Positions 3,601-54,464 of a DNA stretch of 64,000 bases are shown in pieces. The notes under the pieces are model-generated. The model was not told the origin of the DNA. It did no database searches and saw nothing but the letters and a program-made list of their open reading frames with translations. Position 1 is the stretch's first letter; every line of letters begins with the position of its first letter. The position numbers and the translations under genes are program-made. This DNA is from a virus, in IMG/VR virus record IMGVR_UViG_3300043436_001870, positions 49,165 through 113,164 of that record. One strand, given 5' to 3'.

Positions 3601-6365
3601 GTTGCAGGGAGTTTAGCTTTGATAGCATTGATCTCATCCACTATTCTCTGCTGTTCTTGGTAGTAACTTTCCTTCAGTTGAATTCTTGTATTCTTTGCTA
3701 TCCACTGAAGTCTGAGTTTATCCTTTACTTGTTGAGGATAGTTCTTTCTGCTAAGCTCATCCTCATATCTTGTAAGGGCATCTGTAAACAAGGTAGGCAT
3801 GACCTCTGATGTATAGAAGTCCTTTGAGGCTTCTCTAAACTCTCTCAGTCTCTGTGCTATTGCAATTTCCTCAGGGCTCTTTAGTTGACCGGCTGCATTA
3901 AAATTTGAATGCATTAGTCTATACTCCTTCCATAATACATCAAGACCTTCAGTTACGGCCTTGTTTTCTTCCTCACTGTTTCTATCTACAGTAGTACTAA
4001 GGTTTTGAATTCTAGCAAGCAAATCTTTTCTTCTTGCCTCAGCTATAGGACCAACTGTATCATTATCATCCTTCTTAAATATTTTATATCTTTCATAATA
4101 CTCTTTTACAAAAGGAGTATGAAAGTATGTTCTCATGAAAATATCCTTCTCTAACTTGAGACGGATTGCTTCTGAGTCATCACCTGTTTGCTGAGCTTTT
4201 AATACGGCATCTTCAATGTCTTTGTCCATCTTAGCTGTTGCAGCTCTATAATCCTTGTAAGGATTGATGATGGTTCTCACTTCTTTGTCACTTGTAGTGC
4301 CACTTGCATCTCTTGCTGGTCTGCGATCAACAAATGTAATCTTTGCACCAAATGCTGCTGGATTGCTTTGATTGTATCCTGCTCTATCAAGTATTGGTTT
4401 TACATCACTAATAAAAGCATTACCTCTACTCTGTGCAGTAGTCATGACATCAGTTACTCTGTTCTTTACCCACATTGCAAATCCAAATACAATTGGATCC
4501 TGGTTATAAATGTAACCTTCCAAGAATGAATTTAAAGCACTGGCATCACCAATGTTACCCTGCATCAAATAATCAATTTTCTCTTCAGAGAGATATGCTC
4601 CTTTCTTAAAGGAGATTCTCTTAAGCTTCTCATAGTTCTCAGCAGCTACACCAGTAAGCTTTTCTCCTTTTTCAATTCTTTCTTTAAATGACAAGAATGC
4701 TTTTAGCTGATCTGGTTCAAGACCCCAGTAATCTTTCATACGGAGAAGTCTAGTTTGTTCAGATAAACCAAGTTTGTCTATATCTTGCATCAACTTCTTG
4801 TACTTATCATCAATGTACTGCTGCATTGGTTTCAACTGAGTTTTAATTAACTCACTTGTACCATTGAAATATACCTTTCTTGTAGAGATCTTAGCTGTAT
4901 CTATCTGACCCTTGATATTCTCTACCAATTCAAAAATAGGATTCTCTGCCTCAATGTATCCATCTTGTTGAGCCTGTGCAAGAGTTTCCTTGAAATTATC
5001 AATGAAATTTTCCCATCCATTAAGAACATCATTGAAGTAGAATACAGTAGCAATATTATCCTTAGAATTTGGATCCTTTACAAGCCCAGTAATAGCACGG
5101 TTCATTTTAGTAGCCATACTTAATAGTCTGTCCAAACTCTGAACAAATGCTGTAGTGTGACTTTGTGCAGTACGTATCTCCTGCATTATTTTGTCAATCT
5201 CCTGGGTTATAAAAGTAGTTGCATCCTGAAATGGTGTAAGGTTTCTTTTAATTTCCTCAAGGTCATTTCTATTATACTTATCTTTGATAATCTCAGCAGC
5301 AGCTGCATAGTCCTTGTTCTTTTGAATAAGACCTAAGTACTTATTCATTACAACATACATCTCATTAGTAGACTCAATGAGTGCATTCTTTGGTAAGTTA
5401 TCTAACCCCTGTATTACTTCTTGTAGGTCAGTATAGTATTTGACTACATCTTCTTCAGACACAGCATCTAGATCAAGAATAAACTTGTCTAGAACAAGCA
5501 TGTCTGCTAGTTGATCTAATGTGGTGTCTACACTTAACTTCTCAATGGTAATCTTTTCCTCCTTGCCAAAAATCTTTCTTAAGATTTGGCGGATTGCATA
5601 TAGAATATCAGAGATGAACTTATTAAAGGCACTGTCTTTCTTCTCTACTGCAGCTTCAGTAAGAGCCATTACTAATAGCTCTTCCATAATAACAGGATCG
5701 TCCTCTGCTAATTCAGGGTAAGCTTGTTTAGCTGCCTCAAGAAGTTTTGGACCCATTGATGTCTGAAGTACCTGGCTAACCAGTTTATCAAACAATGGTT
5801 TATTAGATAACTGAATTGCTCTAATTACAGGGTGAGCAAACTCGTGGAATGCAGTCTTCTCTGTAATCAAATTAGGAATTACATATACTCTCCCCTGAAA
5901 GAAGAATGCTGGCTGACCTTTCCATGGATTGGCAGAACCTGCTGTAATTTCTGCAGCTGTCTCTGCTGTAATAACATCATAAGGAATACTTGTACTCTGA
6001 CTTAAAGCAAAAAGAAACTGAGTCATTCTTGCTGTTACCTTAAGACTACCCTGTGACTTTGCATCAAGAGTAATAGGATTAACAATTGTACTGTATGCTG
6101 GATCTGTATTTATTGATGTTTGAAATCCATTATACATAGCACCAAGTGGTACATTCTTTAATCCCGGAGCATGAATTGCTAATGTCTCAAGCATGTCATT
6201 AAACTGCTCAATTGTAGGAATCTCTATATCCTCACCAGCTTGTTTGTTCTGGTTAATTGTAAGATATGCACGTTTTACTTCCTGCTCTGCTATTTCAGCA
6301 AGACCAATTGATTTAGCATATTCAATAAGGGGATCAAGCACCCCAGGCATAGGACAAGCTACCAT
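645..6365 (-). CDS. Large virion cargo/ejection protein (1906 aa) with N-terminal zincin-like domain
   Basis: HEFAH at 5832-5846 followed by MEELL. Mostly helical, with a hydrophobic stretch (VGSLALLVLSISMIFGF) near the C-terminus. Adjacent to the virion RNAP gene. Confidence 0.8.
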   Translation of the reverse strand: MVACPMPGVLDPLIEYAKSIGLAEIAEQEVKRAYLTINQNKQAGEDIEIPTIEQFNDMLETLAIHAPGLKNVPLGAMYNGFQTSINTDPAYSTIVNPITLDAKSQGSLKVTARMTQFLFALSQSTSIPYDVITAETAAEITAGSANPWKGQPAFFFQGRVYVIPNLITEKTAFHEFAHPVIRAIQLSNKPLFDKLVSQVLQTSMGPKLLEAAKQAYPELAEDDPVIMEELLVMALTEAAVEKKDSAFNKFISDILYAIRQILRKIFGKEEKITIEKLSVDTTLDQLADMLVLDKFILDLDAVSEEDVVKYYTDLQEVIQGLDNLPKNALIESTNEMYVVMNKYLGLIQKNKDYAAAAEIIKDKYNRNDLEEIKRNLTPFQDATTFITQEIDKIMQEIRTAQSHTTAFVQSLDRLLSMATKMNRAITGLVKDPNSKDNIATVFYFNDVLNGWENFIDNFKETLAQAQQDGYIEAENPIFELVENIKGQIDTAKISTRKVYFNGTSELIKTQLKPMQQYIDDKYKKLMQDIDKLGLSEQTRLLRMKDYWGLEPDQLKAFLSFKERIEKGEKLTGVAAENYEKLKRISFKKGAYLSEEKIDYLMQGNIGDASALNSFLEGYIYNQDPIVFGFAMWVKNRVTDVMTTAQSRGNAFISDVKPILDRAGYNQSNPAAFGAKITFVDRRPARDASGTTSDKEVRTIINPYKDYRAATAKMDKDIEDAVLKAQQTGDDSEAIRLKLEKDIFMRTYFHTPFVKEYYERYKIFKKDDNDTVGPIAEARRKDLLARIQNLSTTVDRNSEEENKAVTEGLDVLWKEYRLMHSNFNAAGQLKSPEEIAIAQRLREFREASKDFYTSEVMPTLFTDALTRYEDELSRKNYPQQVKDKLRLQWIAKNTRIQLKESYYQEQQRIVDEINAIKAKLPATVAATIKIDELYEEMRQLLNPYRDEDMQPDGTAMSVNNIAAIKAVEEKIEKAKDALIGITGLTKLEQQELNDLFEIKSTRGLDQFESSRFSSLMDKRSLYGLSKADKQRIMELYNELSELRQSVPTVYYLDTANSIFSLIPIKTLIDTIGSKDITPDNADKILDPTFYNTVISKYPEVKAWFDENHTMKQTRDKTGAPTTKISRVRAWNVTRPSNAKHYETFTFTNSKGETETVLGVPSQQYTKRIVKDEYIVKEVTMLEALEQGDPTLATVDNYGRHLPRLDAPDNRFINQQFFDIKKNDKPLYDAILALSKYHLRFQEGSPSQSKLFLDIPRFMTSNYERNLNFLNADKKPENPISGWWRNVRNLFKGSSDDFDRGFNYEEQSMIMDGDLYDDQYAGIPIHGLSDLGVSDVSLDVVGGMLRYMLSAEKQRALIEMNPMARALQSVLHDPSNYVNIQKGISNSQIKARNIANNIKQKALWQQEQKDKSVRQRAIDNFIEREFEGVMAKGALGNDNDARWVTKTAQQIMKYSAFGYFALDIPSALKNDFSLRIQSMIEAAGGRYFNTANYGKGQLWATNAAMDLSMNLYTGKPKTHNEQLIMVFDAYQGRFEEKFGEQMSRSFAQDALGGLSWMTSFRKWTELNSTVSIFGAMMYHQTVERTVNGRTERIPYMDAWETVDGQIRIKEGVDPEWGVGGEKFKAFKNKVQGVTNNLAGSFAKFDYADADRYLLFKWIIAFKRWFVRMFLNRFQFRGSWRDPQYRFDAAVGDTVMGYHVESLRLLVRSIRQGSDYYRSRTDSEKIAVIKSLVDVGSLALLVLSISMIFGFDYDDPDKFEKLRKKSGPLPFIGTSETETDFKFMGWLSNHALMMAMGLKNEQQQWLTGGNYLEMLKFDSVAMHNTFDNYGKIIGGLTTSAMHSLFGTDDSKAYFDQREGPYVWMQEGGTDNPIEGYKPLTYLARSFGATGKSLDPAMAVTNFVKAQNWR

Positions 6366-9300
6366 TTACTTAAAGCATTTATTATTAAACTCAGCAATTT
6401 CTTCATCTGTTACAGGAGCACCATATTGTACAACAATACGTCCTTCACCAAAAGTCAAGTAGTGAGGATTGATATATCCAAACTTCTCAAATAATTGTTG
6501 TGAAAGATACAAAAAGGTTTGGACACCTATGGTTGTTTTATCAGCATACTGTGCATCAGCAGCTGCCGGGAAGTATTCATTGTAACCAATGAGGTACTGA
6601 CCATATCCATTAGAATCAAATGCAAGGTTGACACCAGATTCTTTCTTCTCCATAAGAGCAGCAATGTCTTCATCAATCATTGCTTTGTTCTCTTTAAGAG
6701 TAGCATCTGTCCATGCAGCCTTAGCATTGAAGTCCTTGATCTTACCTTCCTTAGCTTGAGAGACACGTGGTAATGATTTAGTTCTTATACCCAAAGAATT
6801 GTCACCCATAGCTCTGTAAACAACATTAGTACCAGCTGTATCTCTACTTTGTGTTGATGCTTCATTCCTCACAAATATTGTATTAGGATAGTCAACACTT
6901 AGCTGTATAGCATTCTGATCTGTTAGTTTATCAAACTGATTAACTACCTTTTTGGTTTTTTCATCTGTGCTTGTAAGGAGGTTGAATGTAAGTACACCTG
7001 TAGATGTATCCTGCAGCAATTCAAACAAAGTTAAAGTCTGAATATCACCAACTCTTTTCTTATTTGTAGACTTACTGATTTTACCAGCAACTACTTTTTT
7101 AGAACCAAAGTCACCGTTCCATTCAATGTTTTGACCCCCCGATTGACCATTTCTATTTAGAGCATAAGCAATGTTTGTCGCTCTAGATAAAGCTACATAC
7201 TTTAATTGGTTTTTTTCTTCTAGGGAAACAGGTGCCTCAATAATTGACTCTGTATCTACAAACACATTTGTATATGTTGATCCTTGTGACTTATGAATAG
7301 TATGAGCATAGCCATAGTCTATTGACTTTTTAAGAACTACTCTACCTTTTTTATCCGTAACGTCAAATGGAGTCATTATAGAATCTTTCAATCCACTGTA
7401 TATTGCAAATGCTTGATTTGCTCTTAGCTCTCCTGATTCAACCTGAGCATCTAAAGATTTTTGATATTCAACCAGTTTCTGAGCAAGAAGATTAATAATT
7501 TCTTGAGAGGTGCTTCTACTTAATACAAACTTCTCATATATATCACCATCACCATCTATTTCTTGTAGTTGTATTGTATATCCAGTTAGTTCAAGACCTC
7601 CTAGACCATTAAATGTCATTTTATTTTCTGCTTGAACGGATAGTACTTCATAATCAACAGAGTTATTTATTTGAAATGTTCCACCTTTTTTATAGCCTAC
7701 ATTTTCATATGCCATAATAATGTCACCTATAACATATTCTAGAATCTTAGACGTATCTACTTCTTTATCAAACCAGATTTTGTTTCTTACAACCTGGTTA
7801 AAATCCTCTACCCTTTCATTAGAATGTGACAATATTCTTACAAAGTTTCTATTGTTCTTAAAGTTTTCAGACTTAAAAGCAGCAATAGCTTGTCTTGTGA
7901 AATCAACTCCAGTCTTTGTTGTAACAATGCCTTGATTACCAGAAAGTTCTGTTTTAGCATCTATAGCTGATGTATCCTTTTTCTGATTATTACGAATGTC
8001 TTCAAGTATAGGACCTAATGGATTTGATCCAGCTTGTCTTTCTACTTTAGTCAGTTCATACTTATAGGGATGATCAAATGCTTTAGATCTCTTAGAGGTA
8101 GTCTTATCTTCCTCTACAGGATTAAGCTGTGCAGGATCTCCAATGAATAAGATCTTTGTTTTACCTTCTCCAGCATAATCAGACAGAGCATCAAATAACT
8201 CATCACCTACAAGTGAAGCCTCATCTACAATTACTACATCAGGTTTATAAAGAGATTCTTTTTGTACAGTTAACTTAATTTTACGAAGGTCTGTCTTAGT
8301 AAGCTTAGATGAGCTACCAAGACCTAGAAGCTTCTGTAATGTCACAGCTCCTGTCTTTGCTAGTTTGGCAATTACCTTCTTAGCTTTATGAGTAGGTGCT
8401 GTTACATTAATAGAGAGACCTCTTTGTCTCATGTACTCAAGGGCAATCTTTGTGATACTTGATTTACCTGTACCAGCATAACCCATCAGAGTAAATACAT
8501 CCTGGTTAGGATTATCAATGAAGTCAGCAATCTGCTGCAATGCTTCAAGCTGTTGATCATTAGGTGTAAATGGTATATCAAGCTTATCAAGATTTAGATT
8601 AATACCATTTATTGTAACAATACGACCAGGAGTCTCTTCCTCTGTTTCAAGTGGTGTTTCTAATTCAGATACAGTGTCATCTGTAATTCTAACAATATCT
8701 GAAGGTATTCCCTCAGGATTAAATGCGTAGTTCTTAAGCTTGTTACTTACATTCTTATTGTCAATTCTATACTGATTATTAAACAATGATGTATACTCAT
8801 CAAGAACAGTATTAGGTCTAGCCTTTAGATCAGTAAGAAACTTATCATAGGATGACTTAAGAAGACCATAGAACATATCATTAGGAACAGCTCTGATTAA
8901 GCTGAACGCAGATGTAGTATCAATACCTGTCTGAAGTAATGCATATAAACCAAATCTTGCAAATACCTTTGAGATTCTTTCATTCTCAATTGGATCTTCT
9001 ACCTTAATTACATTAGGGTCAGCTAGTTCTTCAATCTGCTGAGTATATAGATCAAGTTCTTCAGGTGTAGGTCTGTCACCAGTAAACTTAAGGTTGTTAA
9101 TAGTAACCTCTTGTTTCTTACCATCATTGGTTACAAATGATGATCCTCCTGTACTAATCTCAAGTCTATCAAGAACCTCATACTTGTCTAAAAGTGATGG
9201 GTTCTCCTTACCAATTTCAAGTACTTGCTTAGCATAAGATCTACCACCAAAGAACATGTGTCCATGGTAGTTGAGATTATCCAAAGCCATATCTCTTAGA

Positions 9301-12300
9301 GTAGCCTCATAAGCTTTAAATGCTGGCTTTGAATCATTCTTGAATGTATTTAGATGCGTCTTATAGATAGATGAGTTCTTTAAGTTTTCTGGACTATTCT
9401 TCTCAAAAGATCTTAGGACTTCTCTTTCATATACAAACTTAGTATAGAGAGCCTCAGCTGTCTTAGCATCATACAATGCAAATACAGATGACTCCACAGG
9501 TGCTACCTCGTTCTCCCACATAGAATCTTTAGAATACAATTCCTGTTGGAAAGTTGTAAGGATATCAGACTTACTTGCATACAAGATACCATTTTTTACT
9601 CTTGCTCCGGCACGAAGATATGTGACACCTTCAATAGGAACTTGTACTTCAAATCCTCTGTATACACCTTGTGTCTGATTGAATCTATAGTAATTAGATT
9701 GGAATACATAGTTAATCAAATCACTTCTGAATCTTTCAATGTACTCATCAGCATCAAGACCAGTCATCTTCTTATATGCAGATATAGGAGGCATACCCGA
9801 GATATCCTTATCAGTAAGGGATGCTATTTTTCTATTTACCTCCTTGCTATCTCTTAATGGGAATAGGTCACTGAATAAATCAAGGATGAAGTCTTGAATC
9901 TTGTAGGCAGACACCGGTGAATTTTCAATGATGTTCTGAATAGACTCGGGCTCAATACCATTAGCAAGGTCATCAATCTTAGCTAGTCTTAATCTAGCAT
10001 CAAGAAGTGTCTCTGTCTTAGTACGGTCAAAGTTCAAGTTCTGAGTAAGCTGAGTAATCTGTGAAGACATCTCACTTATTTCAAGGAAGTGAAGGAATAC
10101 AGAACGGTCATAATTATCAAAATCATTTGACTTATTAAGACGGCCTGCTAGGTCTGCTTTCTTAAACTCACCTATACCTTCTACAAGTCTATCAATTTCT
10201 TCAAAAACAAGTCTCTTACTAGGCTTCTTGTTCTTATACTTGGAGGTAGAATCCTTATCAGACTTCTCTTGGAAATCTGCTACAAGCCAGTTAAAGCCAT
10301 ACTTATTATCACCCTTATCAGCAAATAGTATACGGTCTCTTGCCTCATTTCTAAAGAAGTTACCTACATCACCATAGCCAATAGCTCTAGAGTACTGACT
10401 CTTAAACTTACGTTGCTCCTTAACAAAGTCACGTATGATTGGTTGAGACAAGAAGTATACGGCATCCTCAACAGGTACACCTGCCATGGTCATAAAGAGA
10501 AGACTGTTAATCAGCTCCTTGTTACCCTGAACATCAAAGATCCATGCTTTCTTAGCCACGTCAACAGAACCGTTGATCAATTGGCTGATAATGTCTGAGA
10601 TCTTGTTTAACTGTTCGGCATCATAATTTGCTGATAATGTTATACTATCACCTATCTTGTTGTGTGCAAACTTCAGTCTTTGTGGGTGCTCTACCGAACC
10701 TCTTTGAGTCTGAGTAATAATACGATTCTTTGTAAGAACCAAACCTGATCTACCAAAGATTGATTGAAATGTATTTACAACTGCAATGATACCTAGTACA
10801 TCCTTCCCTACGTTGTTTGACTGATGCTTATATAGGTTTCTTCCTACCTCAAATATTTCAGAAAGTCCTTTAGCCTTCTGTGTGCCTGCTCCTTTAGTTT
10901 CTTTAGCAATAGTCTCACCCAACGGTTCCATAGTGTCCGTTGTATTAGGTGTAATAAGACTGCTGAAGTTAAATGGATCAAGAAGAATATCCTTGATTAC
11001 ACCTAGAAGTTGGTTTTCAAGACCGGCCTTATCATCACCAAAGTTCATTACTGCAGAGGTCTTGTCTTCATAGTAAGTATCAATAGCTCTAAGTATATCT
11101 TTCTCCTCTTCTGTAAGAGTAGAGATGTCTAGATCTTCACCTAGTTGAACTAATTCTTTTATTTCATTGACTATAGCAGCATCAATTCCAAAACCAAGAA
11201 TATCAGATATTAAAGCATAGTCTTCCTCATTAACCTCTCTCTTTGTTTTGATGGTTGGGAAGAAGGTAAACATCTTATCAATGTCAAAGTCACCACCAGA
11301 CTTAGCAACAATCTCTGCAGGAAGAATAACAATGTTACCTGACTCCTCTGGAAGGAATTCAAACACCTCCATGACCTCCATAGAGTTTAGACCTTGAACT
11401 GGGATACGTACAGCAGCAGTTGTTACCATTGCTCTGTTGTCCCCTTGGTTCAACCACCACTCCTGCTTTATAAGATGATTTAATGCATCCAGTCTAGTTA
11501 CTCCATTCTCATTAGAGTATTTTACTACATCAGCATGATTTAGTAAGTTCTTAAATGGACCTTGTAAGGATATCTTGATCTTCATTGCTGATACAGATAT
11601 CACATTACCTTTCTTATCTAATTTAGGATTATAGAATGGTAGACCATTTGTACCACCATATCTTCCTATTTCTTCTTCTGTAGCTGTTCTTAATCTACCT
11701 TGTTCAAATCCTACTCCAGATACTTGTACTAATGATTCACCAGTTAATTTCTGATTAAGTATTCTCTTCTGAGCAATGTTTACAAGAGCTCTTTCAATTA
11801 CATCTGCTGATGGAGATAAGTCTAGATCTCTTAACAGAGTATCTGTAGCTTCATCTACACCTAAGAAGTCTACCTCATGCTCAGACAGTTTCTTACCTGG
11901 GCCAGACAATTCACTCTTAATGAATTCAATCAGACTTTTCTTAGTAGAACCTACCTGATCTCTGATTTTCTGTTTCTCAATCTCTACAAGACTGTCTAGA
12001 ATCTTTTCAAATCTAGATGCATATCTAGCAAACTTTGTAGAAAGCTTATCATTCTCAGCATTCCAGAGTCTGTATCTTTCATTCTTGTCTGCTATATTTG
12101 GTTTGTAATCTACAGGAACCTTATTTTCAAATAGACCCTGCTCAATTAATTTACGTAGCTGAGAAGAGAATGTAACTTTCTTTTTGTAATACTCAGCTAC
12201 TTCTAACTGATCCTTGAAGTAATCAAGGAAAACAGTATTCTTTGTAAACTGATAAGTTGGTGCATCAAATGCATAACCCTCAGTTGTTCTTTGATTATCA

Positions 12301-15300: not shown

Positions 15301-18008
15301 GACTGCTTATCTTTAATAAGAGTGGTTGTTGCTGCTGCTGTGTTGTATGCTTCATTTACCTTGTCAACATACTCAGAGAAAAGAGCATCGGTGCTATCTC
15401 CTAAAAGCTTGCTGATCATACTATTCATTACATAAGGAGAATCAGCAGCAGTTGACTCAATTGTCTTAGTCTTATTTAGTACATCAAAGTTAGCATTGGC
15501 TTGATCAAAAGTATAACCAGTTAGATTACCTACACGTAGTTTTTCATACAGCTCTCCAATGACTTTGTTGTCCCTAGGTGAAAGCTGTACTTCATCAACA
15601 GTTGTTCCTCCAAACAAGTTCTTAAGTAAATCAAGTAACCATTGGAAGAACTTATTACGTACAGGCTTGCCTTCTACAGGCTTACCTTTACCCAACATAA
15701 ATTCACGGAAATCCTCTGCAAGATACTCCTCTAGCTCTAGTAGAGTAGCATCAGCAAATGATACTGTTCTACCCATATATGACATGAATGTGCCGGTGCT
15801 CTTACGTGCCTCAGCATACATCTCATTTCTTTGGGCCTCAGTCATGAATGTCTGAGTAAACCCATGCCATGCTTCATGGTATAAATCAGTAAAGTCAGAA
15901 CCTTGGAAGAGAGTAATACCAGATAATGTCCAAGTTGCAACAGAACCTCTTGTATTAGAGTTTACTGCATTGAACATTACTTCATAAGGAATAACCTTAG
16001 CTAAAGGACTTCTCTCATACCATGCTTTAGCAGCATAGATCTGAGCAACAGTTGCTTTAACTGATTGTTGCTTATCAAGTTTGTTGAGACCTTTGGCCTT
16101 ACGGATAGTCTCTTCAAGCTTACCATTCTTTATGGCATTACCAATTACATTAGAATCAGCAGAACTTCTACCTCTTGGTTGTCTAGCCTTTGCCTTTGTA
16201 ACTGCTTCTTGTGCTGCAGCTTCATTGACTGGATTAGAAACAACTGGTGCAGTGCTTACAGGAGCTTGTGGTTGTTGTACTGTTACTGGATTCTTTAATA
16301 CTGTTTTACCAACCTCAGCTTTTACTGGACTGATTGTAAAGTATCCATTGTACTCACGTAGTTTACCATTAGAGTCAAAGAATCCTCTGATCTCTTTTGA
16401 AACTCTATCTAAATATTCTATTTGGTTCTCAGTAAAGTAATCTAAAACAATGGTACCATCCTGCTCAGACAAATTGAAGTTTGTGAAACTATTTTCATTA
16501 AAGTTCTTAGTAAGTATACTGTATTCTCTTGGAAATTTTTTTTTATCTGAAGAAATAGCATTTCTTAATTCTTGAAAAGAAAGAGCATCTGTTAATTTTT
16601 GAACAGCAGAGGAATCATTTAAGTCTATGTCTTTTCCATTATGAGTAATGTATAACTCAGACAACTTATAGTCAAAGTCTATCTTAAGACCTTTTCTTTC
16701 TTGTCCACCAAAGAATGAATTAATTAACTCATACTTTTCTTTTAGGGAAACTTTTACTCTTTTACCTTCAACATTTTTATATACGTCAGTGGTAAGAAGT
16801 TTAACAAGTTTATCTATATCAGTTTTGTCAGCAGGTTTTGTAAACACTTGTACTGACATATTACTTGCTCCAACCTTAAGTTGAATTGATTGTTTCTTAT
16901 CTTTTGTAACAAAATCTAATTTTAAAGGAACATTACCAAAATTGGCCTGTGAAACTTTGATACTAACTCCTTTTGCATCAGTATAAATACCAAGACGTGC
17001 ATCTGTAATAGAATAAACAATTGTATTACCTGGATTCTGATTCAAATATGCATAGCTTTTACTCAATGCATCAAATTGTGCAGTAAGTAATGCTTCAGCC
17101 TGCTCAATAGATATCTCACCTTCAGAATTATCTGATATTTCTTTTGGTGACTGTGTATACTCATTCTTTTGCCAGTTGTACTTACCATTGTCAAGTTTTC
17201 CTGGAATAGGTCTTGAACCATAATAAATTATACGTCCTTTATCTGATACATTAAACTGTTCATTAAAGTATAAAGGTGTACCATTGACATCTGTAATTAC
17301 AAATGCATACGGATTTTTATTTGCAGGCTGAGGGTATATCTGACCTTCAGGGATTCTCTTAATAGGTACAAGACTAATATGAATACCGCCAGTTACTCCA
17401 GGATACTCTATACCAGTTTCTCCTGGTTTAGGAGTAAGACCTTTTGCAGCCAAGAACTTAATAAAGTCTGTGTAATAAGCTAATGCTGCATCCTCTCCTA
17501 GACTGGCATTGCCTGGATCAGACAATGTATTAATTGTTGTAGCAAACGGATTAATAGGTCTAGGTCTTGTAAAGGGTACTCCTGCCTTGCTAATCTGAGC
17601 ACTTACTAAAGTTCTTTGTTCCTCAAAATTGATTTCAGAAATGATTTCTCCAAGATCTTTAGGAGGCTCATTGAGTCCTAGATAAGCTACTGTATTGTCA
17701 AGTCCTTTTTCTGGATTTGATAATTCATCTCTCAAGTCAAAAACCTCATCAAGACTTAATCCTTTTTTACGAATTTCCTTGCTTTTTGGTTGAGCAATCA
17801 TCTCTGGAAGAACAGCAGCTGTTAACATAGCATACTCAACAGCCAAGTTTTTATTTCCTGATTTAGCTAACACTCTGTCATAAATACTTTTTAGGTAGTT
17901 ATTCAGATTAAAAGTTTTTGCAGGATCATTAATAATCACTAATAAATCCTTTGCAATTTTTTTACGAAGGACCTGTATCTGCTCTGGGGTTCTTGTACAA
18001 TTGATCAT
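6366..18008 (-). CDS. Virion-packaged two-barrel RNA polymerase polyprotein (3880 aa): zincin-like domain, RNAP, SF1 helicase, C-terminal domain
   Basis: HEAWH (15864-15878) and LEEYLAEDF; ADGQGW (about 12655-12672); RIPVQG (about 11400); KSGGDFDIDK with DFDID at 11277-11291, as in the phi14:2 gp66-type crAss virion RNAP. Helicase motifs GYAGTGKS, DEAS, GDPAQL, HKSQGSTY, YVALSRA at about 7150-8570. Confidence 0.9.
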   Translation of the reverse strand: MINCTRTPEQIQVLRKKIAKDLLVIINDPAKTFNLNNYLKSIYDRVLAKSGNKNLAVEYAMLTAAVLPEMIAQPKSKEIRKKGLSLDEVFDLRDELSNPEKGLDNTVAYLGLNEPPKDLGEIISEINFEEQRTLVSAQISKAGVPFTRPRPINPFATTINTLSDPGNASLGEDAALAYYTDFIKFLAAKGLTPKPGETGIEYPGVTGGIHISLVPIKRIPEGQIYPQPANKNPYAFVITDVNGTPLYFNEQFNVSDKGRIIYYGSRPIPGKLDNGKYNWQKNEYTQSPKEISDNSEGEISIEQAEALLTAQFDALSKSYAYLNQNPGNTIVYSITDARLGIYTDAKGVSIKVSQANFGNVPLKLDFVTKDKKQSIQLKVGASNMSVQVFTKPADKTDIDKLVKLLTTDVYKNVEGKRVKVSLKEKYELINSFFGGQERKGLKIDFDYKLSELYITHNGKDIDLNDSSAVQKLTDALSFQELRNAISSDKKKFPREYSILTKNFNENSFTNFNLSEQDGTIVLDYFTENQIEYLDRVSKEIRGFFDSNGKLREYNGYFTISPVKAEVGKTVLKNPVTVQQPQAPVSTAPVVSNPVNEAAAQEAVTKAKARQPRGRSSADSNVIGNAIKNGKLEETIRKAKGLNKLDKQQSVKATVAQIYAAKAWYERSPLAKVIPYEVMFNAVNSNTRGSVATWTLSGITLFQGSDFTDLYHEAWHGFTQTFMTEAQRNEMYAEARKSTGTFMSYMGRTVSFADATLLELEEYLAEDFREFMLGKGKPVEGKPVRNKFFQWLLDLLKNLFGGTTVDEVQLSPRDNKVIGELYEKLRVGNLTGYTFDQANANFDVLNKTKTIESTAADSPYVMNSMISKLLGDSTDALFSEYVDKVNEAYNTAAATTTLIKDKQSLSVGYDYVREQMTAQLEYLLEERSKMDSNIEDTSDTDFAIDTIAAGLANFGDPYNLDNPVGLVKFHMENSTLMKSTIQAIEEEASITDRNVFEKRAGNEVPLANLAKPDVLFTIRSLKAYEKDGSVKLNILGLPDLNDFKKSWNRILNITEGANTDNEVYEKLKLAAEDYPIIKELMSKIGSPQNLDEASVNLWTDFTKILTMPRINLRMLELKQTDRFIQDVQGGFGRKETSYIVSPVEATGEFRKVGRRWNDNFAIADEGEYITKDIYGNNILNVNAVYRQFRNTKFTKDNIDDIYKFFDSIGIVLEDGKSAKADAYKSGLANYGKRTMDYLQAIYAYNKSKDGLLNPIKIQAPSDIYKNYKSDSAYKLPKKIEQVSVRQVLGGGSGIYNGLQKFQLKWSDDFADTTVNNANNQSQQERSLRSTISNQIGKWNRAKSITELTQEGVPNANDLSMSHLSPSRNPFVKSTIIYKSTFDENGVRRTYKDSSSGQQVPVSIQLNNMAGFMNQYTNTRNIMERSGIDASSADETTKLVGDFLMLTLYGATEATRHADKATTLLYKLLNGKLHYIDLKNFKTAGGKTEFADTLIGYLSSEFERIQKLKNGDPSATVTVGDKTYGEVAQDFVIFNGILKPETITNLKEQLATSPEVQTSEQFLKFVDGNLDLKNLLQTDITDYLTEQRQKNAKMLQESGILSNTGVINSLLEKLETGDSERSPKDVINGLTAERREKMITALIDGYTANDWIHKYEFSVMFYGDPALYKNVDDFFKRNAGIAATGDFARTGPAMTAYIDSKFAQVSYAATRGKTRASFGNTMNSAVMQDVVSKSIYYDTYLEAALKIEKDRLKKVNASPETVAKAEASIKKVFSKYTEMTEADGQGWISFDAYRALLMSLNKWTPNQEFLYNKIVKGEEVAMDDVLNFFPVKKMQYWGPLMGTGLPATAFHKYSLMPLIPSVIKNTPLENLHNKMVDQDIDYALMQSGSKVSTITKDGKADKFYNDNQRTTEGYAFDAPTYQFTKNTVFLDYFKDQLEVAEYYKKKVTFSSQLRKLIEQGLFENKVPVDYKPNIADKNERYRLWNAENDKLSTKFARYASRFEKILDSLVEIEKQKIRDQVGSTKKSLIEFIKSELSGPGKKLSEHEVDFLGVDEATDTLLRDLDLSPSADVIERALVNIAQKRILNQKLTGESLVQVSGVGFEQGRLRTATEEEIGRYGGTNGLPFYNPKLDKKGNVISVSAMKIKISLQGPFKNLLNHADVVKYSNENGVTRLDALNHLIKQEWWLNQGDNRAMVTTAAVRIPVQGLNSMEVMEVFEFLPEESGNIVILPAEIVAKSGGDFDIDKMFTFFPTIKTKREVNEEDYALISDILGFGIDAAIVNEIKELVQLGEDLDISTLTEEEKDILRAIDTYYEDKTSAVMNFGDDKAGLENQLLGVIKDILLDPFNFSSLITPNTTDTMEPLGETIAKETKGAGTQKAKGLSEIFEVGRNLYKHQSNNVGKDVLGIIAVVNTFQSIFGRSGLVLTKNRIITQTQRGSVEHPQRLKFAHNKIGDSITLSANYDAEQLNKISDIISQLINGSVDVAKKAWIFDVQGNKELINSLLFMTMAGVPVEDAVYFLSQPIIRDFVKEQRKFKSQYSRAIGYGDVGNFFRNEARDRILFADKGDNKYGFNWLVADFQEKSDKDSTSKYKNKKPSKRLVFEEIDRLVEGIGEFKKADLAGRLNKSNDFDNYDRSVFLHFLEISEMSSQITQLTQNLNFDRTKTETLLDARLRLAKIDDLANGIEPESIQNIIENSPVSAYKIQDFILDLFSDLFPLRDSKEVNRKIASLTDKDISGMPPISAYKKMTGLDADEYIERFRSDLINYVFQSNYYRFNQTQGVYRGFEVQVPIEGVTYLRAGARVKNGILYASKSDILTTFQQELYSKDSMWENEVAPVESSVFALYDAKTAEALYTKFVYEREVLRSFEKNSPENLKNSSIYKTHLNTFKNDSKPAFKAYEATLRDMALDNLNYHGHMFFGGRSYAKQVLEIGKENPSLLDKYEVLDRLEISTGGSSFVTNDGKKQEVTINNLKFTGDRPTPEELDLYTQQIEELADPNVIKVEDPIENERISKVFARFGLYALLQTGIDTTSAFSLIRAVPNDMFYGLLKSSYDKFLTDLKARPNTVLDEYTSLFNNQYRIDNKNVSNKLKNYAFNPEGIPSDIVRITDDTVSELETPLETEEETPGRIVTINGINLNLDKLDIPFTPNDQQLEALQQIADFIDNPNQDVFTLMGYAGTGKSSITKIALEYMRQRGLSINVTAPTHKAKKVIAKLAKTGAVTLQKLLGLGSSSKLTKTDLRKIKLTVQKESLYKPDVVIVDEASLVGDELFDALSDYAGEGKTKILFIGDPAQLNPVEEDKTTSKRSKAFDHPYKYELTKVERQAGSNPLGPILEDIRNNQKKDTSAIDAKTELSGNQGIVTTKTGVDFTRQAIAAFKSENFKNNRNFVRILSHSNERVEDFNQVVRNKIWFDKEVDTSKILEYVIGDIIMAYENVGYKKGGTFQINNSVDYEVLSVQAENKMTFNGLGGLELTGYTIQLQEIDGDGDIYEKFVLSRSTSQEIINLLAQKLVEYQKSLDAQVESGELRANQAFAIYSGLKDSIMTPFDVTDKKGRVVLKKSIDYGYAHTIHKSQGSTYTNVFVDTESIIEAPVSLEEKNQLKYVALSRATNIAYALNRNGQSGGQNIEWNGDFGSKKVVAGKISKSTNKKRVGDIQTLTLFELLQDTSTGVLTFNLLTSTDEKTKKVVNQFDKLTDQNAIQLSVDYPNTIFVRNEASTQSRDTAGTNVVYRAMGDNSLGIRTKSLPRVSQAKEGKIKDFNAKAAWTDATLKENKAMIDEDIAALMEKKESGVNLAFDSNGYGQYLIGYNEYFPAAADAQYADKTTIGVQTFLYLSQQLFEKFGYINPHYLTFGEGRIVVQYGAPVTDEEIAEFNNKCFK

Positions 18009-21000
18009 TACTTACAATCTAATGAGTTATCAAATTCATCATTTACTTCGTCTTCTGAGATGTTTTCTACATCATCAAAAGCCTGACTACTTAGTTTACT
18101 TGCCTCTTCTGAATCAGTTGCTGTTTCAGCAGACTGATTTGCAAGATCTTTTTCTTCTGTAGTAAACTCAACAGGACTCTCAACTTTATCAATCTCACCA
18201 GTTTTTACATCTTTAATCTTAATGTACTCAACTTGTTCCCTTAGTTGTTGTTCTGTTAATATGACATCCTCTCCAGCAAGATTAAGATTTCTTACAACTA
18301 CTGTTTTATTATTGTCATTCTTAGCTACAATAATGGCATTACCATCAGCACTATATATTGATTTGTCTTTCATAACAAGTATTGTCATAACATTAACTGA
18401 GTCAAAGGTAATACCTGATGGCTCCAATTGATTACGTCTATTTGCAAGAAGTTTCTCATAAGTTTCATAATCCAAGTTCTCAGCTTGCAGAACTTGATTA
18501 TTTACTTTTGCCACAATATCATCTAGCTGTTCTTGAGTAGCTTCTGCAATTTGTTCTCTGATAGTTTTTATATCAGTTGGAGTTGCTTCCTCCTCTGCTG
18601 CAAGTTCTTCAGCAGTTGGTATGCTGATTGGACCTGGTGTTGGTTGACCTGCTGGTACTGGAGCTGGTGCTGCAGGACCTGGTTCTGTAAAGTTATTGCT
18701 AGTATTATACTCATCAACAATGTTATCAATTATAGGATCTGTTGAAGTAGCAAACCATGTAGCAAATTCTTTATTAGCAACACCTGGTTTATTAGTTGCA
18801 ATAGAATACTGACCAAGCAATGTAGCCATTAAATCTGGATAGTCCTTCTTAAGAGAATCAAGACTTGTACCTCTTGTTACAGCTGGTTTAGACACAATAC
18901 CTATTCCACTAGCTGGTGCTGTTCCTGCTGCAGTTGTGGTTCCTGCCGGAGCAGTTACACCCTTTCCTGCAAGTTTGTTAGATACAATACCTAGTACCTC
19001 AGTAAGAGCTGTCTCATCTATTGATATAGCCTGACCAAATTGTTTTTTAAAGAAACTAACCAATGCCTTTACAAACTCCTGCCATAGATTACGGTTAGTA
19101 TTCTTGTAGGGAATTATTGCAAGGACTTCTTGGCCGGCCTGACTAGCAAAGGCTTCAGCAACAAATGCTTCTTGACTAGTAAGCATGCGAGTAACATAGT
19201 TACCATACTTCTGTCTCATATCAGGATTATCTTCATAGTACTTCTTAAATGCATCCATGACATTCTGAATAGCAGCCTTAAACCCTGGATCAGATTGATT
19301 ATCAGAAACAATCATCTGGGTTAATGGATGTATCATTAGATATGTCAAAGTAGATGTATAGAACTTACCATCAACTTGGGCTGAATAATCCTTAGTAGCA
19401 AATCTAGGATCAATAGTAATACCTGTTTCTTTAGTGTAACTAAATCCAGAAGGACTTGTCAATGATATTACCATTTTCTTCTCAGGATCAACTGCCGTCA
19501 TAAGATTTTGAATCATCTTTCTAGACGGAACAGATCCTATTCTTTTCTTGAGAATATATTTAAGAACATCAACAATAGAAATAGTATATGTATCTTGACC
19601 AGGTTGTAAACCTAATCCAGTCAATATATCATTTAATGAAGGAGCCTTATCAGCTTCAATCATATCATCAATTAAATATCCTCCCTTAGCCATAGCTTCA
19701 GCAATAACTTTACCCTTTAGAGTAAAGCCTTGTTCTGATTCAAACTCAGACAAGAAATTTAGAATTTCTTTGTAAAGATTACTTGTAGGTTCTACTTCTT
19801 CAAACTCATTAGTCTTTGGGTTTTGTTTGTAGAATGCTGAAGGAACTCTATCTCCTTTCATCAATGCTTCAATCTCATCCGGAGAAAAGAATACATTGAA
19901 CTTTAAAAACAGTTTTTGAATAAGTTCATTTACTCCTATACGAGTCTTGAACTCATCCAATGACTTCTGCATCTTGGTTTTAGCAATTTCTCTAGCATCC
20001 TTTGCAGCTTGTGTAAACTGCTTAGCTGCCATTGAATAATTGTATGGATCATTCAAGAATGTCACAGCATTCATTGCATCACTCAAATTCTCTGAAAGCT
20101 CAGCATAGTCAATAACTTGTAATACCAGTTTATCTAGTTCTGGACTCTTGGCATCAATACCAGAAATAGCAGAAAGGTAGTCTCTTACTCTAGTTTCAAG
20201 CTCTTGTCTTCTTTGTTCTAAACCGGCCTCAATTTCATTACCCTCAAAGTCTAATGGTAATTGACCCTGAGGACCACCAGTAACCTTTAGTTTTTTAGCT
20301 TTGATGCTGACTGATTTAGAAACTTTCTTACCAGATGCATCTGTGTATTCTATGGTAACTTTATTGGATGTCTTCTTTGTTACAGTACCTGTAACCTTAG
20401 CACCGTTCTTAAAAGTATACTCCACAGTGCTGCCCTGCTGTACAGTAAATTGTGTCTTGGTATCTTCCTTTACTTCATCTCTTAGTGCAGCATTTGCTAC
20501 AGATTTCTTGGCTTGACTATATTCTTTTCTGTAATTAGCAAAGTCTTCCTTAAAGTTTCTAAGAAGAGCTGCTTGTTTCTTTCTTTCCTCACCTAGTTTC
20601 TTCTGTGCTTCATCACCCTGTAAATATCCAGTAGCCTCCCTTTCTAGAAGATTAATCTGAGTATCAATCATATCCTCACCAAATGCACTTTTGCTGTCAC
20701 TTAGAAATAAAGATGTAAGTTGCATAGACTGAGCTGCTCCTAACTTTGTTCCAGCTGCATCATTAAATATGCTACTTAATCTTTTAGCTGCTTGCTGATA
20801 TGTATAGTCATTATAAATTGCTAGGGTACGAGCTTCTTCAAATCCATACCAGTCTTCATATTCATCTGGGTTACCTGACTTAGGATTAAATGGATTTCTA
20901 ATAGTACTATACTTCTCATGATTAGCCTTGATCTGATTTACTTTATTCAAAACAGAATCAAGTCTACCTCTCATATCATTATTAAACTCATCAGCTTTAC

Positions 21001-23116: not shown

Positions 23117-23120
23117 ACTA

Positions 23121-26100: not shown

Positions 26101-26372
26101 TGTTCTACATTCTCAGCAAGAGAAAGATCAACACCAGATAACCGGTCTATCTCTGAATCAACCTGAGTAAAGAATGCATCTCTGCGTTCTTTGTTACTCT
26201 CTCTCAGTAAGTTAGAGTTTAAGAGTTGACCATAAACTGAATTGATTTTGTTATATCCTGCATCATATTGAGCCTGCTTAGCAGTTAAAGCAGACTGAAA
26301 GAAATTAAAGTCCGGCTTGAAAGGCTGGATCTGTGGGATATAATCTTGTATGCCGTTGATGTAAATTGCCAT
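23121..26372 (-). CDS. Virion cargo protein (1083 aa) with a glycine-zipper membrane-insertion segment
   Basis: N-terminal QPFKPDFNF...KQAQYD, typical of crAss-like cargo proteins. Segment GLIGVAELVGGGVLTAISGIGEVFSLGTATPFAAAGISAGLTG. Confidence 0.7.
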   Translation of the reverse strand: MAIYINGIQDYIPQIQPFKPDFNFFQSALTAKQAQYDAGYNKINSVYGQLLNSNLLRESNKERRDAFFTQVDSEIDRLSGVDLSLAENVEQAGKLFQPLIDNQYFRKDLVFTKQFEGQQAKAMNLRNNPNPKSDEKYWEEGMSALNYQAEDFANSSDDDSLRFQNPRYVPFINAAENLFKFAKDNDINIVTPDIRGGFIFKYTNGQPAIPTIKNVFSSLLAGDPRIKDMFRTQAYLDRKNYIQGNLEKFNGDAVGAETEYLQSKVKEINEYYRVANMDDTERMEYAKSKKKVIEATIREKGVDPDLDQDLIAIYQNTLQDESVQSTVLEKNKEALTQTDFMSYDPADLEGMRQRVDGAMSYFLLDDLANSTATNYAMSHADIDIKEDPYTVLKVKHAYAMAELEAKFQKDKALKIMDVVGKMIEENGSAAAGTSFGEGFNSGYEVTVPGPGNITNEDIDTFERNRNVSQSLGKESEVATKQSINEFLSMQNYYITNGTPEQKALATKAVKDVLGEYQVQEKTPEMVKEVDTPTDWTTGLIGVAELVGGGVLTAISGIGEVFSLGTATPFAAAGISAGLTGIYQGSKDISSGFAGTTTEKIPEQIKKTSGLAVRNSNGTYSLVNVDKQTPEFTIEGTGSYYATVQKKITNYMNEQVKITKDPAAIAVQQKVLKANAIVQENEDLKAGINDIMIRNNTKVASKLALEAGVNSLDASIFFKQNKSGIRSENEYIQAYLAANKGKQTLDPSGMVMVDATQDLLIEYAQDAYEELVDAYETLKKDPNSELGLETIDSKLPGDGGINRYYGTAAGYTFDSAVFNSLSFDMAKDFYVKDLIPKTASQSFMDDYGIKVVSGISGFDLTADDLENEDIVNDASQTSALNTLKAFLGSAMMNTGGKTGENQMRPTGNYFLHAVAGNDATKVAMTWELDPGWVNKHAGNEKEKGIAWDLQQKMNEGQRPTITFMMDADKASSSPFLGMQMTKNEWTMNMKGKIVLDSFSDLGGHVELVPNALGGYTYTGQARSVDAAGKVLNNPIYGTTTTDLNSSVNFFNNMFADFNRGNMEYMASLKESSQNKIYDPAQLTQ

Positions 26373-26403
26373 GTGTTATAGTAAAAATACAAAAAAAATC
26401 TGT

Positions 26404-26429
26404 AAAGTTTAATAAACTTTTAAAGTTTA
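26404..26429. promoter_or_regulatory. Triple alternating 8-bp repeat (operator/promoter-like)
   Basis: AAAGTTTA-a-TAAACTTT-t-AAAGTTTA forms two overlapping perfect inverted repeats in the only sizeable gap of the cargo block. Confidence 0.5.
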
Positions 26430-29210: not shown

Positions 29211-29222
29211 AGTGTAAAGGTA

Positions 29223-48149: not shown

Positions 48150-48153
48150 TGTA

Positions 48154-49626: not shown

Positions 49627-49662
49627 ATATATAATCTACTTATTTTTTTGTTGATTTCCAAA

Positions 49663-54278: not shown

Positions 54279-54281
54279 CTA

Positions 54282-54443: not shown

Positions 54444-54464
54444 ATTTATGTTGGTTTTAAATTA

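What the first reader, a model, noticed from the sequence alone, without database searches (positions are those of the whole stretch)
6354..18016. Three giant ejection proteins are Cys-free except for cysteines facing each other at the gene junctions
Seen: reading the 1702-, 3880- and 1906-aa proteins (about 7500 aa) I find only four cysteines. They are ...SLDCK* (18014-16) next to MINC... (17997-99), and ...NKCFK* (6375-77) next to MVAC... (6354-56). The outer ends of the trio have none. The genes are coupled by TAATG and TAAATG junctions. Inference: the C-terminus of each protein is joined to the N-terminus of the next by a disulfide or metal clasp, rebuilding a head-to-tail chain. Such a chain could be threaded through the tail in fixed order and released by reduction in the host cytoplasm.
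Basis: partly seen in the sequence, partly recalled or inferred. Interest (0 to 1): 0.85.

Follow-up and report, generated by a model that had tools for sequence, protein, structure and literature searches.

The report
Terminal cysteines chain crassvirus cargo proteins
Three giant proteins that this crAss-like phage probably packs into its particle and injects (the middle one is its RNA polymerase) have no cysteine except one at each end that faces the next protein; the rule holds in every relative checked and moves with gene fusions and splits, so the proteins are most likely tied head to tail by disulfide bonds into one injectable thread.

Summary
The 1702-, 3880- and 1906-aa proteins (A, B, C) hold four cysteines in 7488 residues, at A-1701, B-4, B-3878 and C-4.

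It is not chance and not a DNA motif.
- All 97 A homologues have exactly one Cys, 0-8 residues from the C-terminus.
- 67 of 68 B/C junctions and 32 of 32 A/B junctions in IMG/VR relatives carry a Cys on both sides.
- 40 loci with A and B fused have no Cys in the 3193-4318 residues visible, yet all five genomes checked further keep the B/C pair.
- Split or inserted proteins carry new Cys-tipped ends.
- phi14:2, crAss001 (where A lies on the opposite strand), p-crAssphage and phage phi4:1 follow the rule.

B is the crAss virion RNA polymerase fused to a Dda helicase. C is the zincin protein.

The bond itself is untested here. A solved precedent with the same sequence signature exists: cyanophage A4 gp27 Cys1715-gp26 Cys5 (PMC12002296).

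This scan has noted the same rule on at least eight other crAss-like genomes. I found no paper describing it for crassviruses.

Verdict: real, conserved, probably a disulfide daisy chain, and a new variant of a known kind.

The parts
18008..23116 (-). Gene A, 1702 aa, first link of the chain. It sits at the position of crAss001 gp47 / phi14:2 g067. Cys-free except Cys1701.
   Evidence: 97/97 homologues have exactly one Cys, 0-8 residues from the C-terminus. No Pfam or PHROG hit. No HMM-detectable homology to gp47/g067.
18014..18016 (-). TGT codon of A Cys1701 (tail ...NSLDCK*)
   Evidence: It is an invariant column in the A-family alignment A4.
6366..18008 (-). Gene B, 3880 aa, middle link: crAss-type virion RNA polymerase fused to a C-terminal Dda/RecD-like helicase. 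Its only Cys are at positions 4 and 3878.
   Evidence: (PDB 6VR4 gp66, E 5e-22)
17997..17999 (-). TGT codon of B Cys4 (head MINC...)
   Evidence: A Cys at position 3-5 is present in all 32 split A/B loci.
11277..11291 (-). DFDID catalytic motif of the two-barrel RNA polymerase (B aa 2240-2244)
   Evidence: The same motif is reported at 1361-1365 of phi14:2 gp66 (preprint 10.1101/2020.03.07.982082).
7158..8576 (-). SF1 Dda/RecD-like helicase domain of B (aa 3145-3617)
6375..6377 (-). TGC codon of B Cys3878 (tail ...NNKCFK*). It lies at the end of a predicted C-terminal helix.
   Evidence: It is the only invariant column of alignment A2. AF2 places a helix at residues 138-149 of the last 150 aa.
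645..6365 (-). Gene C, 1906 aa, last link: homologue of phi14:2 g065 (RNAP-associated zincin protein). One Cys, at position 4, and none at the C-terminus.
6354..6356 (-). TGT codon of C Cys4 (head MVACPMPG...)
   Evidence: Invariant in alignments A1 and A3. 45/46 homologues have a Cys in the first 10 residues, and the exception is N-terminally truncated.
5832..5846 (-). HEFAH zinc-binding motif of the zincin domain of C (aa 174-178), about 170 residues from the junction Cys
   Evidence: Fold matches to zincin peptidases are weak.
23121..31757 (-). Three upstream Cys-free genes (1083, 927, 844 aa). They are probably cargo proteins but, by the cysteine rule, not part of the chain.
   Evidence: They lie between the muzzle gene (39180-44363, crAss_MUZ) and A.

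Best explanation
A, B and C are the virion-packed RNA-polymerase cargo block of a crassvirus. I propose that in the particle the C-terminal tail of each protein docks on the N-terminal head of the next, and that a Cys-Cys disulfide locks the joint. For B, the predicted tail is a helix ending in the Cys. For C, the head is a short coil carrying Cys4, followed by a small helical domain. The result would be one linear thread A-B-C of about 7500 residues with side stubs of only 2-4 residues. All other cysteines are purged, which lets the unfolded proteins pass the tail and leaves no wrong pairing possible. After injection the reducing cytoplasm would open the joints and free the polymerase-helicase and its partners. 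Shown here: the cysteine pattern, its conservation, and its coupling to protein boundaries. Shown by others: virion packing of the homologues, and a real disulfide of this type in phage A4. Inferred: the bond in crassviruses, ordered threading, and reductive release.
For: (1) The pattern is exact in the window.
(2) Family-wide counts. 97/97 A homologues have one Cys each, all at the C-terminus, in 189,850 residues. 45/46 C homologues have a Cys at position 3-10, none has a C-terminal Cys, and there are 5 internal Cys in 93,331 residues. 59/61 B homologues have a C-terminal Cys.
(3) Junction-wise counts. 67/68 B/C junctions and 32/32 A/B junctions have a Cys on both sides.
(4) Only inner termini carry Cys, in chains of 2, 3 and 4 proteins. 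This asymmetry is what pairing of neighbours predicts.
(5) Fusions. P0148 and 40 IMG/VR loci with A and B fused have no Cys at the former junction, and none at all in the 3193-4318 residues visible. The fused protein still ends in a Cys and C still starts with one in 5/5 genomes checked. The gut Suoliviridae examined are fused in the same way and keep the B/C pair, with 1-7 scattered internal Cys.
(6) Splits and insertions.
- L062 splits B into 602 + 2440 aa with a new Cys pair, whereas the unsplit L045 B has none there.
- L044, L073 and L055 have an extra 576-689-aa protein with exactly two Cys, one at each end.
- The tail next to C keeps 74% identity to the L045 B tail.
- P0101 is a truncated B with a new 47-aa tail ending in ...LGC.
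(7) The pattern does not depend on gene adjacency. In crAss001, cr85_1 and cr128_1 the A-type gene is on the opposite strand, yet the pattern is the same.
(8) It holds in phi14:2 g067/g066/g065, where all three are annotated as MS-detected in virions. It also holds in p-crAssphage gp45/gp44 and in Cellulophaga phage phi4:1, which lies outside Crassvirales.
(9) crAss001 virions contain gp47, gp49 and gp50, and also real structural disulfides (PMC10172136).
(10) Solved precedent. Cyanophage A4 has a gp27 Cys1715-gp26 Cys5 disulfide, with the C-terminal helix of gp27 docked in gp26 (PMC12002296). In A-4L, ORF27 (1717 aa) and ORF26 (1114 aa) each have exactly one Cys, at 1715 and at 5.
(11) AF2 models. 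The B tail is a helix bearing the Cys. The C head is a coil with Cys4 followed by a confident helical mini-domain.
Against: No experiment or structure shows the bond in any crassvirus.
- The proteins are made in a reducing cytoplasm, and no thioredoxin-fold gene was found in this genome. Oxidation would therefore have to happen in the particle or after lysis.
- Gut crassviruses live in an anoxic habitat.
- The A/B fusion state needs only about 2 changes on the tree, so the 40 fused loci are few independent events.
- Exceptions exist. cr116_1 gp049 has a C-terminal but no N-terminal Cys. p-crAssphage gp47 has a lone C-terminal Cys with no evident partner. L125 shows an ORF break without Cys.
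- A4 gp27/gp26 share no detectable sequence homology with A/B/C, so that precedent is an analogy.
Confidence: 0.7

Rival explanations
1. Metal clasp. The facing terminal thiols bind a shared metal ion (a Zn hook or clasp, or a linear Cu(I) site) instead of forming a disulfide. The proteins would still be chained head to tail.
For: The same pairing logic fits all comparative data. C carries a zinc site nearby.
Against: There is only one Cys per terminus, and no conserved His or second Cys beside it (alignments A2 and A3). Two ligands are too few for a stable Zn site unless several copies meet. The one solved case of this signature is a disulfide.
Confidence: 0.08
2. The terminal Cys bond to something other than the neighbouring protein: to a second copy of the same protein (tail-tail or head-head dimers) or to a capsid or portal protein, as anchors for packing.
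For: Fusion data alone do not exclude it, because termini vanish on fusion anyway. Several copies of each protein per virion have been suggested as possible for crAss001 (PMC10172136). p-crAssphage gp47 has a lone terminal Cys.
Against: It does not explain why the first N-terminus and the last C-terminus never carry a Cys, while every inner terminus does, in chains of 2-4 proteins. It also does not explain why the tail peptide next to C is kept when a protein is inserted.
Confidence: 0.1
3. Regulation of the zincin protease. The junction Cys acts as a cysteine switch on the catalytic zinc of C, keeping the protease latent in the particle.
For: C4 is as invariant as H174/E175/H178/E229. The zincin domain always lies within about 200 residues of a Cys-tipped junction, on the other side of it in p-crAssphage gp45.
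Against: It cannot explain the A/B pair, the pairs at new splits far from any zincin domain (L062), or the A4 and phi4:1 cases. In the AF2 model a 65-100 low-confidence linker separates the head from the zincin domain.
Confidence: 0.05
4. Chance, or a nucleotide-level signal at coupled gene junctions that happens to encode Cys.
For: In the window both junctions share AAGTAA(A)TG.
Against: P is about 5e-12 in the window alone. Codon (TGT or TGC) and exact position vary among homologues. The pattern persists when the genes are not adjacent or lie on opposite strands.
Confidence: 0.01

Closest known systems
Cyanopodophage A4 (Anabaena phage A-4L) ejection proteins gp27-gp26, with a Cys1715-Cys5 disulfide in the cryo-EM pre-ejectosome (PMC12002296)
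   Same: The neighbouring genes encode large ejection proteins with one Cys each. The upstream protein has it 2 residues from its C-terminus, and the downstream one has it at position 5. The C-terminal helix of the first protein docks on the second and is locked by the disulfide. This is the same sequence signature as every junction here.
   Different: It is a two-protein link in a 42-kb T7-like podophage, with no RNA polymerase. There is no detectable sequence homology to A/B/C. The paper reports one bond in one phage. It gives no rule, no link to fusions or splits, and no reductive-release idea.
RNA-polymerase cargo block of cultured crassviruses: phi14:2 g067-g066-g065 (gp66 = PDB 6VR4) and crAss001 gp47-gp50-gp49
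   Same: B matches gp66 and carries DFDID. C matches g065 by HMM. Synteny after the muzzle and cargo genes is the same. The terminal-Cys pattern is identical. The homologues are MS-detected in virions.
   Different: B here carries an extra Dda helicase and is 1.6-1.8 times longer. A shows no sequence similarity to gp47/g067 by HMM search. The papers searched do not mention these cysteines.
Cysteine-free ejected proteins of Schitoviridae (N4 gp50, DEV gp71-gp73; PMC11445570)
   Same: Cys is strongly purged from giant injected proteins, including a virion RNA polymerase. This is read as an adaptation to passage out of the particle and through the periplasm.
   Different: Those proteins have essentially no Cys at all, and any found are treated as errors. 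No terminal pairs and no linkage are proposed.
Di-chain AB toxins held by one interchain disulfide that is reduced in the target cytosol (from my own knowledge)
   Same: This is a resemblance in how it works only. Separate chains travel as one covalent unit through a narrow translocation step and are released by cytosolic reduction.
   Different: Those are single gene products nicked by a protease. There is no homology, the bond spans a loop rather than two true termini, and no virion is involved.
Polyprotein form of the same block in other crassviruses (fusions noted in the Drobysheva et al. preprint; 'polyvalent proteins', PMC5512222)
   Same: The same modules are joined by peptide bonds instead. 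B relatives carry varied accessory enzyme domains typical of polyvalent proteins.
   Different: The fused forms lack the junction Cys. The published view invokes proteolytic processing, not disulfide tethering.

Membership tests
Crassvirales virion RNA-polymerase cargo block (gp47/gp50/gp49 type) | The middle protein is a two-barrel RNA polymerase with a DFDxD motif, related to phi14:2 gp66 | tested here: met
   phmmer against PDB hits 6VR4_A at E 5e-22 over B aa 2198-2538. DFDID lies at aa 2240. tblastn hits the RNAP genes of 60 crassvirus records.
Crassvirales virion RNA-polymerase cargo block (gp47/gp50/gp49 type) | The downstream partner is the zincin (HExxH) RNAP-associated protein (g065/gp49 type) | tested here: met
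   HEFAH and E229 are invariant. The C-family HMM hits phi14:2 g065 at E 2e-16 and the C proteins of cr1_1 and cr50_1.
Crassvirales virion RNA-polymerase cargo block (gp47/gp50/gp49 type) | The upstream partner is homologous to gp47/g067 | tested here: not met
   The A-family HMM finds none of gp47, g067 or the fused gut forms at E 1e-3. The equivalence rests on position and on the shared cysteine pattern only.
Crassvirales virion RNA-polymerase cargo block (gp47/gp50/gp49 type) | Genomic setting: crassvirus capsid, ring and muzzle genes followed by cargo genes | tested here: met
   Pfam Crass_capsid (61479-63101), CrAss_Ring_1 (44366-45271) and crAss_MUZ (39180-44363).
Crassvirales virion RNA-polymerase cargo block (gp47/gp50/gp49 type) | The proteins are present in virions and injected | not testable with these tools
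   Known only for homologues: MS notes in the phi14:2 record, crAss001 MS (PMC10172136), and early transcription by gp66.
Disulfide-linked neighbouring ejection proteins (cyanophage A4 gp27-gp26 type) | The upstream protein has a Cys at its extreme C-terminus, the downstream protein has a Cys at about position 5, and both are otherwise Cys-free | tested here: met
   Window. A-4L ORF27 and ORF26.
Disulfide-linked neighbouring ejection proteins (cyanophage A4 gp27-gp26 type) | A disulfide between the two Cys is seen in the particle | not testable with these tools
   Seen for A4 only.
Disulfide-linked neighbouring ejection proteins (cyanophage A4 gp27-gp26 type) | Sequence homology to gp27/gp26 | tested here: not met
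   No blastp hit (E 1e-2) and no family-HMM hit. The relation is one of mechanism, not of family.
Cysteine switch of zincin pro-enzymes (MMP type) | A pro-segment Cys ligates the catalytic zinc of the same protein | tested here: inconclusive
   In the AF2 model, Cys4 lies in a coil (pLDDT about 74), separated from the zincin domain by a low-confidence linker at 65-100. The idea does not cover the other junctions.

The most novel reading that the evidence does not exclude
A general 'terminal-cysteine code' may let crassviruses and some other phages of Bacteroidota and cyanobacteria assemble separately encoded cargo proteins into one thread of close to a megadalton. The thread would leave the particle in a fixed order and fall apart by reduction in the host. 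The code would be modular: any new payload gene joins the chain simply by carrying a Cys-tipped head and tail, as the inserted 576-689-aa proteins suggest. Gene fusion and disulfide tethering would then be interchangeable evolutionary solutions.
Probability: 0.5. Interest if true: 0.85.

Novelty: new variant of a known kind. Interest (0 to 1): 0.78.

Why it matters
Crassviruses are the most abundant phages of the human gut. [quoted passage not shown]

A covalent head-to-tail thread would give a concrete, testable answer. It would explain why the block is sometimes one polyprotein and sometimes three genes, and why these proteins are purged of cysteine. It would also give a sequence rule for annotating which giant ORFs of uncultured phages belong to the injected set.

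Two cultured systems (phi14:2 and crAss001) allow a one-day gel test.

Tried and rejected
- Chance and a nucleotide motif at coupled junctions: rejected.
- INPHARED megablast of the region and tblastn of A: no match.
The gene after the split variant P0101 could therefore not be read.
- Scans of genome contigs and metagenome contigs for P0101 found no close relative.
- The Foldseek search of the C 1-330 model gave only weak zincin matches (PPEP-1/2, anthrax lethal factor; E 0.14 or worse). I use it only as consistent with the HExxH motif.
- A phage-encoded thiol oxidase or thioredoxin was sought in the 113-kb genome. PF00085 gave no match. PF04777 gave no match, but its control was silent too, so that answer is uninformative.
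- The A-family HMM against gp47/g067 found nothing.
- p-crAssphage under NC_024711 and JQ995537 is not in the collection. I used BK010471 instead.
- The final Nature version of Drobysheva et al. is not held, so I read the preprint.
- Supplementary MS tables of the crAss001 paper are not held.
- A first large A-family alignment failed, and a smaller one was used.
Full report
**1. Observation**

The three ORFs lie on the minus strand. A is 18008-23116 (1702 aa), B is 6366-18008 (3880 aa) and C is 645-6365 (1906 aa). Translation gives exactly four cysteines in 7488 residues:
- A-1701 (...SLDCK*)
- B-4 (MINC...)
- B-3878 (...NKCFK*)
- C-4 (MVAC...)

The junctions are TAATG and TAAATG.

The purge acts at the codon level. 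In-frame TGY codons number 1, 2 and 1. The other two frames of the same genes hold 16-262 TGY triplets. The three genes upstream (1083, 927 and 844 aa) have no Cys, whereas the other structural ORFs of the window hold 2.7% Cys. Four random Cys would each land within five residues of a distinct inner terminus with P about 5e-12.

**2. What the proteins are**

The window is the last 64 kb of a 113-kb IMG/VR virus record. It encodes a crassvirus major capsid protein, ring protein 1 and muzzle protein. These are followed by Cys-poor giant genes and then by A, B and C.

B matches the solved virion RNA polymerase gp66 of Cellulophaga phage phi14:2 (PDB 6VR4, E 5e-22). It carries the DFDID catalytic motif at aa 2240. 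It ends in a complete Dda/RecD-like helicase at aa 3145-3617.

C has an invariant HExxH...E zinc site. Its family HMM hits phi14:2 g065, the 'RNAP-associated' zincin protein.

A has no recognisable family. It shows no HMM similarity to gp47/g067, so its equivalence is positional.

Homologues of all three are reported in virions of phi14:2 and crAss001. gp66 is reported to transcribe early genes after injection.

**3. Conservation**

Protein searches returned 97 A, 61 B and 47 C relatives, down to about 22-25% identity.
- **A family.** Every one of the 97 A relatives has exactly one Cys, 0-8 residues from the C-terminus. That is 97 Cys in 189,850 residues.
- **C family.** 45 of the 46 clear C relatives (the 47th hit, at E 1.5e-4, was left out) have a Cys at position 3-10, and none has one near the C-terminus. 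The exception starts at C residue 98.
- **B family.** 59 of 61 B relatives have a C-terminal Cys. Those lacking an N-terminal Cys are either truncated entries or longer proteins with extra N-terminal sequence.
- **Invariant columns.** In an alignment of the last 150 aa of B from 47 phages, the Cys is the only invariant column. In the first 330 aa of C, the invariant columns are C4 and the four zinc-site residues.

**4. Junction-by-junction test in genomic loci**

78 IMG/VR loci were fetched around C homologues. In these, 67 of 68 gene junctions upstream of C have a Cys within 10 residues on both sides. The exception (L063) is an overlapping break inside the C homologue, probably a frameshift.

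Another 78 loci were fetched around A homologues. Of these, 32 have A and B as separate genes. All 32 show A with a single Cys 0-8 residues from its end and B with a Cys at position 3-5.

**5. Natural experiments**

(a) Fusion.
- P0148/P0149 (5609 and 5537 aa) begin with an A-like part and end with the B helicase. They have one Cys, four residues from the C-terminus.
- Forty IMG/VR loci have one ORF running from the A start through more than 3000-4300 residues without a single Cys.
- In five such genomes the fused protein ends in ...C-x-x, and the C homologue starts M-x-x-C.
- The gut Suoliviridae examined (cr1_1, cr50_1, cr4_1, cr52_1) also have the large fused form. They keep the B/C pair and have a few scattered internal Cys.
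- On a tree of the A N-terminal region the fused state needs only about two changes. These loci therefore represent few independent events.

(b) Split.
- L062 encodes the B N-terminal part as a 602-aa protein (Cys 3 and 601) and the rest as a 2440-aa protein (Cys 4 and 2438).
- The unsplit homologue L045 (3177 aa) has Cys only at 3 and 3177.
- P0101, 93% identical to B, departs from it after about aa 2371. It ends in a new 47-residue tail...DKLGC.

(c) Insertion.
- L044, L073 and L055 have an extra 576-689-aa protein between B and C, with exactly two Cys, one at each end.
- The tail of the L044 insert is 74% identical to the tail that contacts C in L045.

(d) Gene order.
- In crAss001, cr85_1 and cr128_1 the A-type gene is on the opposite strand from the polymerase.
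- It still has its single C-terminal Cys. The polymerase has Cys at both ends and the C-type protein has one at position 5.
- This removes any explanation based on the DNA or on translational coupling.

**6. Reach**

| Phage | Proteins | Cysteine positions |
|---|---|---|
| phi14:2 | g067 (1797 aa) | last residue |
| phi14:2 | g066 (2180 aa) | exactly Cys 3 and 2179 |
| phi14:2 | g065 (1421 aa) | Cys 3 only |
| p-crAssphage (Intestiviridae) | gp45 (zincin at its end) | Cys one residue from the end, plus two internal |
| p-crAssphage | gp44 (polymerase plus the rest of C) | Cys 3, no C-terminal Cys |
| Cellulophaga phage phi4:1 | gp038 | last residue (its first ~20 residues lie outside the fetched stretch) |
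| Cellulophaga phage phi4:1 | gp037 (517 aa) | Cys 4 and next-to-last |
| Cellulophaga phage phi4:1 | gp035 (1914 aa) | Cys 3 only |

p-crAssphage is thus a two-member chain with a permuted domain order. phi4:1 is classified outside Crassvirales.

Exceptions or unclear cases:
- cr116_1 gp049 lacks an N-terminal Cys.
- The IAS virus gp055/gp056 junction contains Ns.
- cr108_1 has an about 290-nt interruption without Cys inside its polymerase gene.
- L125 has an ORF break without Cys.
- p-crAssphage gp47 has a lone C-terminal Cys.

**7. Mechanism**

Only inner termini carry Cys, in chains of two, three or four proteins. The pair appears and disappears with the protein boundary. The simplest reading is that each tail Cys pairs with the head Cys of the next protein.

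A disulfide is the most likely bond, for four reasons.
- There is one thiol per terminus and no conserved neighbouring ligand for a metal.
- crAss001 particles contain structural disulfides.
- The same sequence signature corresponds to a solved disulfide in cyanopodophage A4. There the C-terminal helix of gp27 inserts into gp26 and Cys1715 bonds Cys5 (PMC12002296). I confirmed that A-4L ORF27 (1717 aa) and ORF26 (1114 aa) each contain exactly one Cys, at those positions.
- AF2 models fit such docking. The last 12 residues of B form a helix carrying the Cys. C starts with a coil holding Cys4, followed by a confident three-helix mini-domain, a disordered linker and the zincin domain.

Ordered threading and reductive release are inferences. 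They draw on the narrow tail (under 50 Å), the tiny side stubs that terminal placement leaves, and the reducing cytoplasm.

**8. Rivals**

- A metal clasp fits the pairing logic but lacks ligands.
- Homotypic bonds or capsid anchoring do not explain the Cys-free outer ends.
- A cysteine switch on the zincin site could add a role for the B/C joint, because the zincin domain always lies within about 200 residues of a joint. It cannot explain the other joints.
- Chance and DNA-level signals are excluded.

**9. Known or new**

Depletion of Cys in ejected proteins is published for N4-like phages (PMC11445570). One head-to-tail disulfide between two ejection proteins is published for A4.

In the papers I could search I found no mention of the crassvirus terminal cysteines or of a general rule. 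These include the crAss001 atlas, the gp66 preprint and a 2026 N4 paper that discusses crassvirus cargo.

Earlier notes of this scan report the same rule on at least eight other crAss-like genomes, and they gave me the A4 lead. I had completed my own tests before reading them, and I checked the A4 claim myself.

**10. Limits**

The gene after the P0101 split could not be read.

Noticed in passing
window 31759-39180 (minus strand); Cys codons at 37807-37809, 37780-37782, 32377-32379, 32347-32349: The 2473-aa cargo-type protein has four Cys, arranged as two close pairs (458/467 and 2268/2278). Similar lone CX7-9C pairs occur in crAss001 gp45 (390/398) and phi14:2 g069 (369/378). Many IMG/VR relatives have a ~1000-aa protein just upstream of A with exactly two internal Cys. 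These may be small intrachain disulfide loops in cargo protein 1.
   Followed up: partly
window 5832-5846 and 6342-6356; L180 (p-crAssphage gp45): The zincin domain always sits within about 200 residues of a Cys-tipped junction: after it in most phages, before it in p-crAssphage gp45. The Cys in C is usually followed by P-x-P (CPMP, CPLP, CPNxN). The weak fold matches of the domain are led by Pro-Pro endopeptidases and anthrax lethal factor. The protease might act at or near the joint.
   Followed up: partly
window 46651-55022 (minus strand): The ORFs in the structural block upstream of the ring-protein gene (two have tail, connector or VWA-domain matches) are unusually Cys-rich, at 3.5-7.6%. 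This is the opposite of the cargo block and fits the disulfide-stabilised tail described for crAss001.
   Followed up: no
L182 (cr116_1) 4043-18754: A 215-aa ORF lies between the polymerase (which ends in a Cys) and an 833-aa protein. That protein has a C-terminal Cys but no N-terminal Cys. It is the one clear breach of the pairing rule I saw.
   Followed up: partly
L180 (p-crAssphage) gp47, 21141-23714: An 857-aa cargo-type protein has a single Cys one residue from its C-terminus. No neighbouring protein has an N-terminal Cys (gp46 has none at all).
   Followed up: no
L084 (cr108_1) 17152-17443: The polymerase gene is interrupted by about 290 nt without an open frame. The flanking ORF ends carry no Cys, so this looks like an intron or an assembly break rather than a protein boundary.
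   Followed up: no
B homologues P0104-P0145: Relatives of B carry varying accessory domains: DUF1768/NADAR, 2OG-Fe(II) oxygenase, ART-PolyVal, AAA_33 kinase and PF25176. A and C relatives carry NUDIX, PD-(D/E)XK, zeta-toxin, LysM or HD domains. The chain therefore behaves like a modular 'polyvalent' payload carrier.
   Followed up: no
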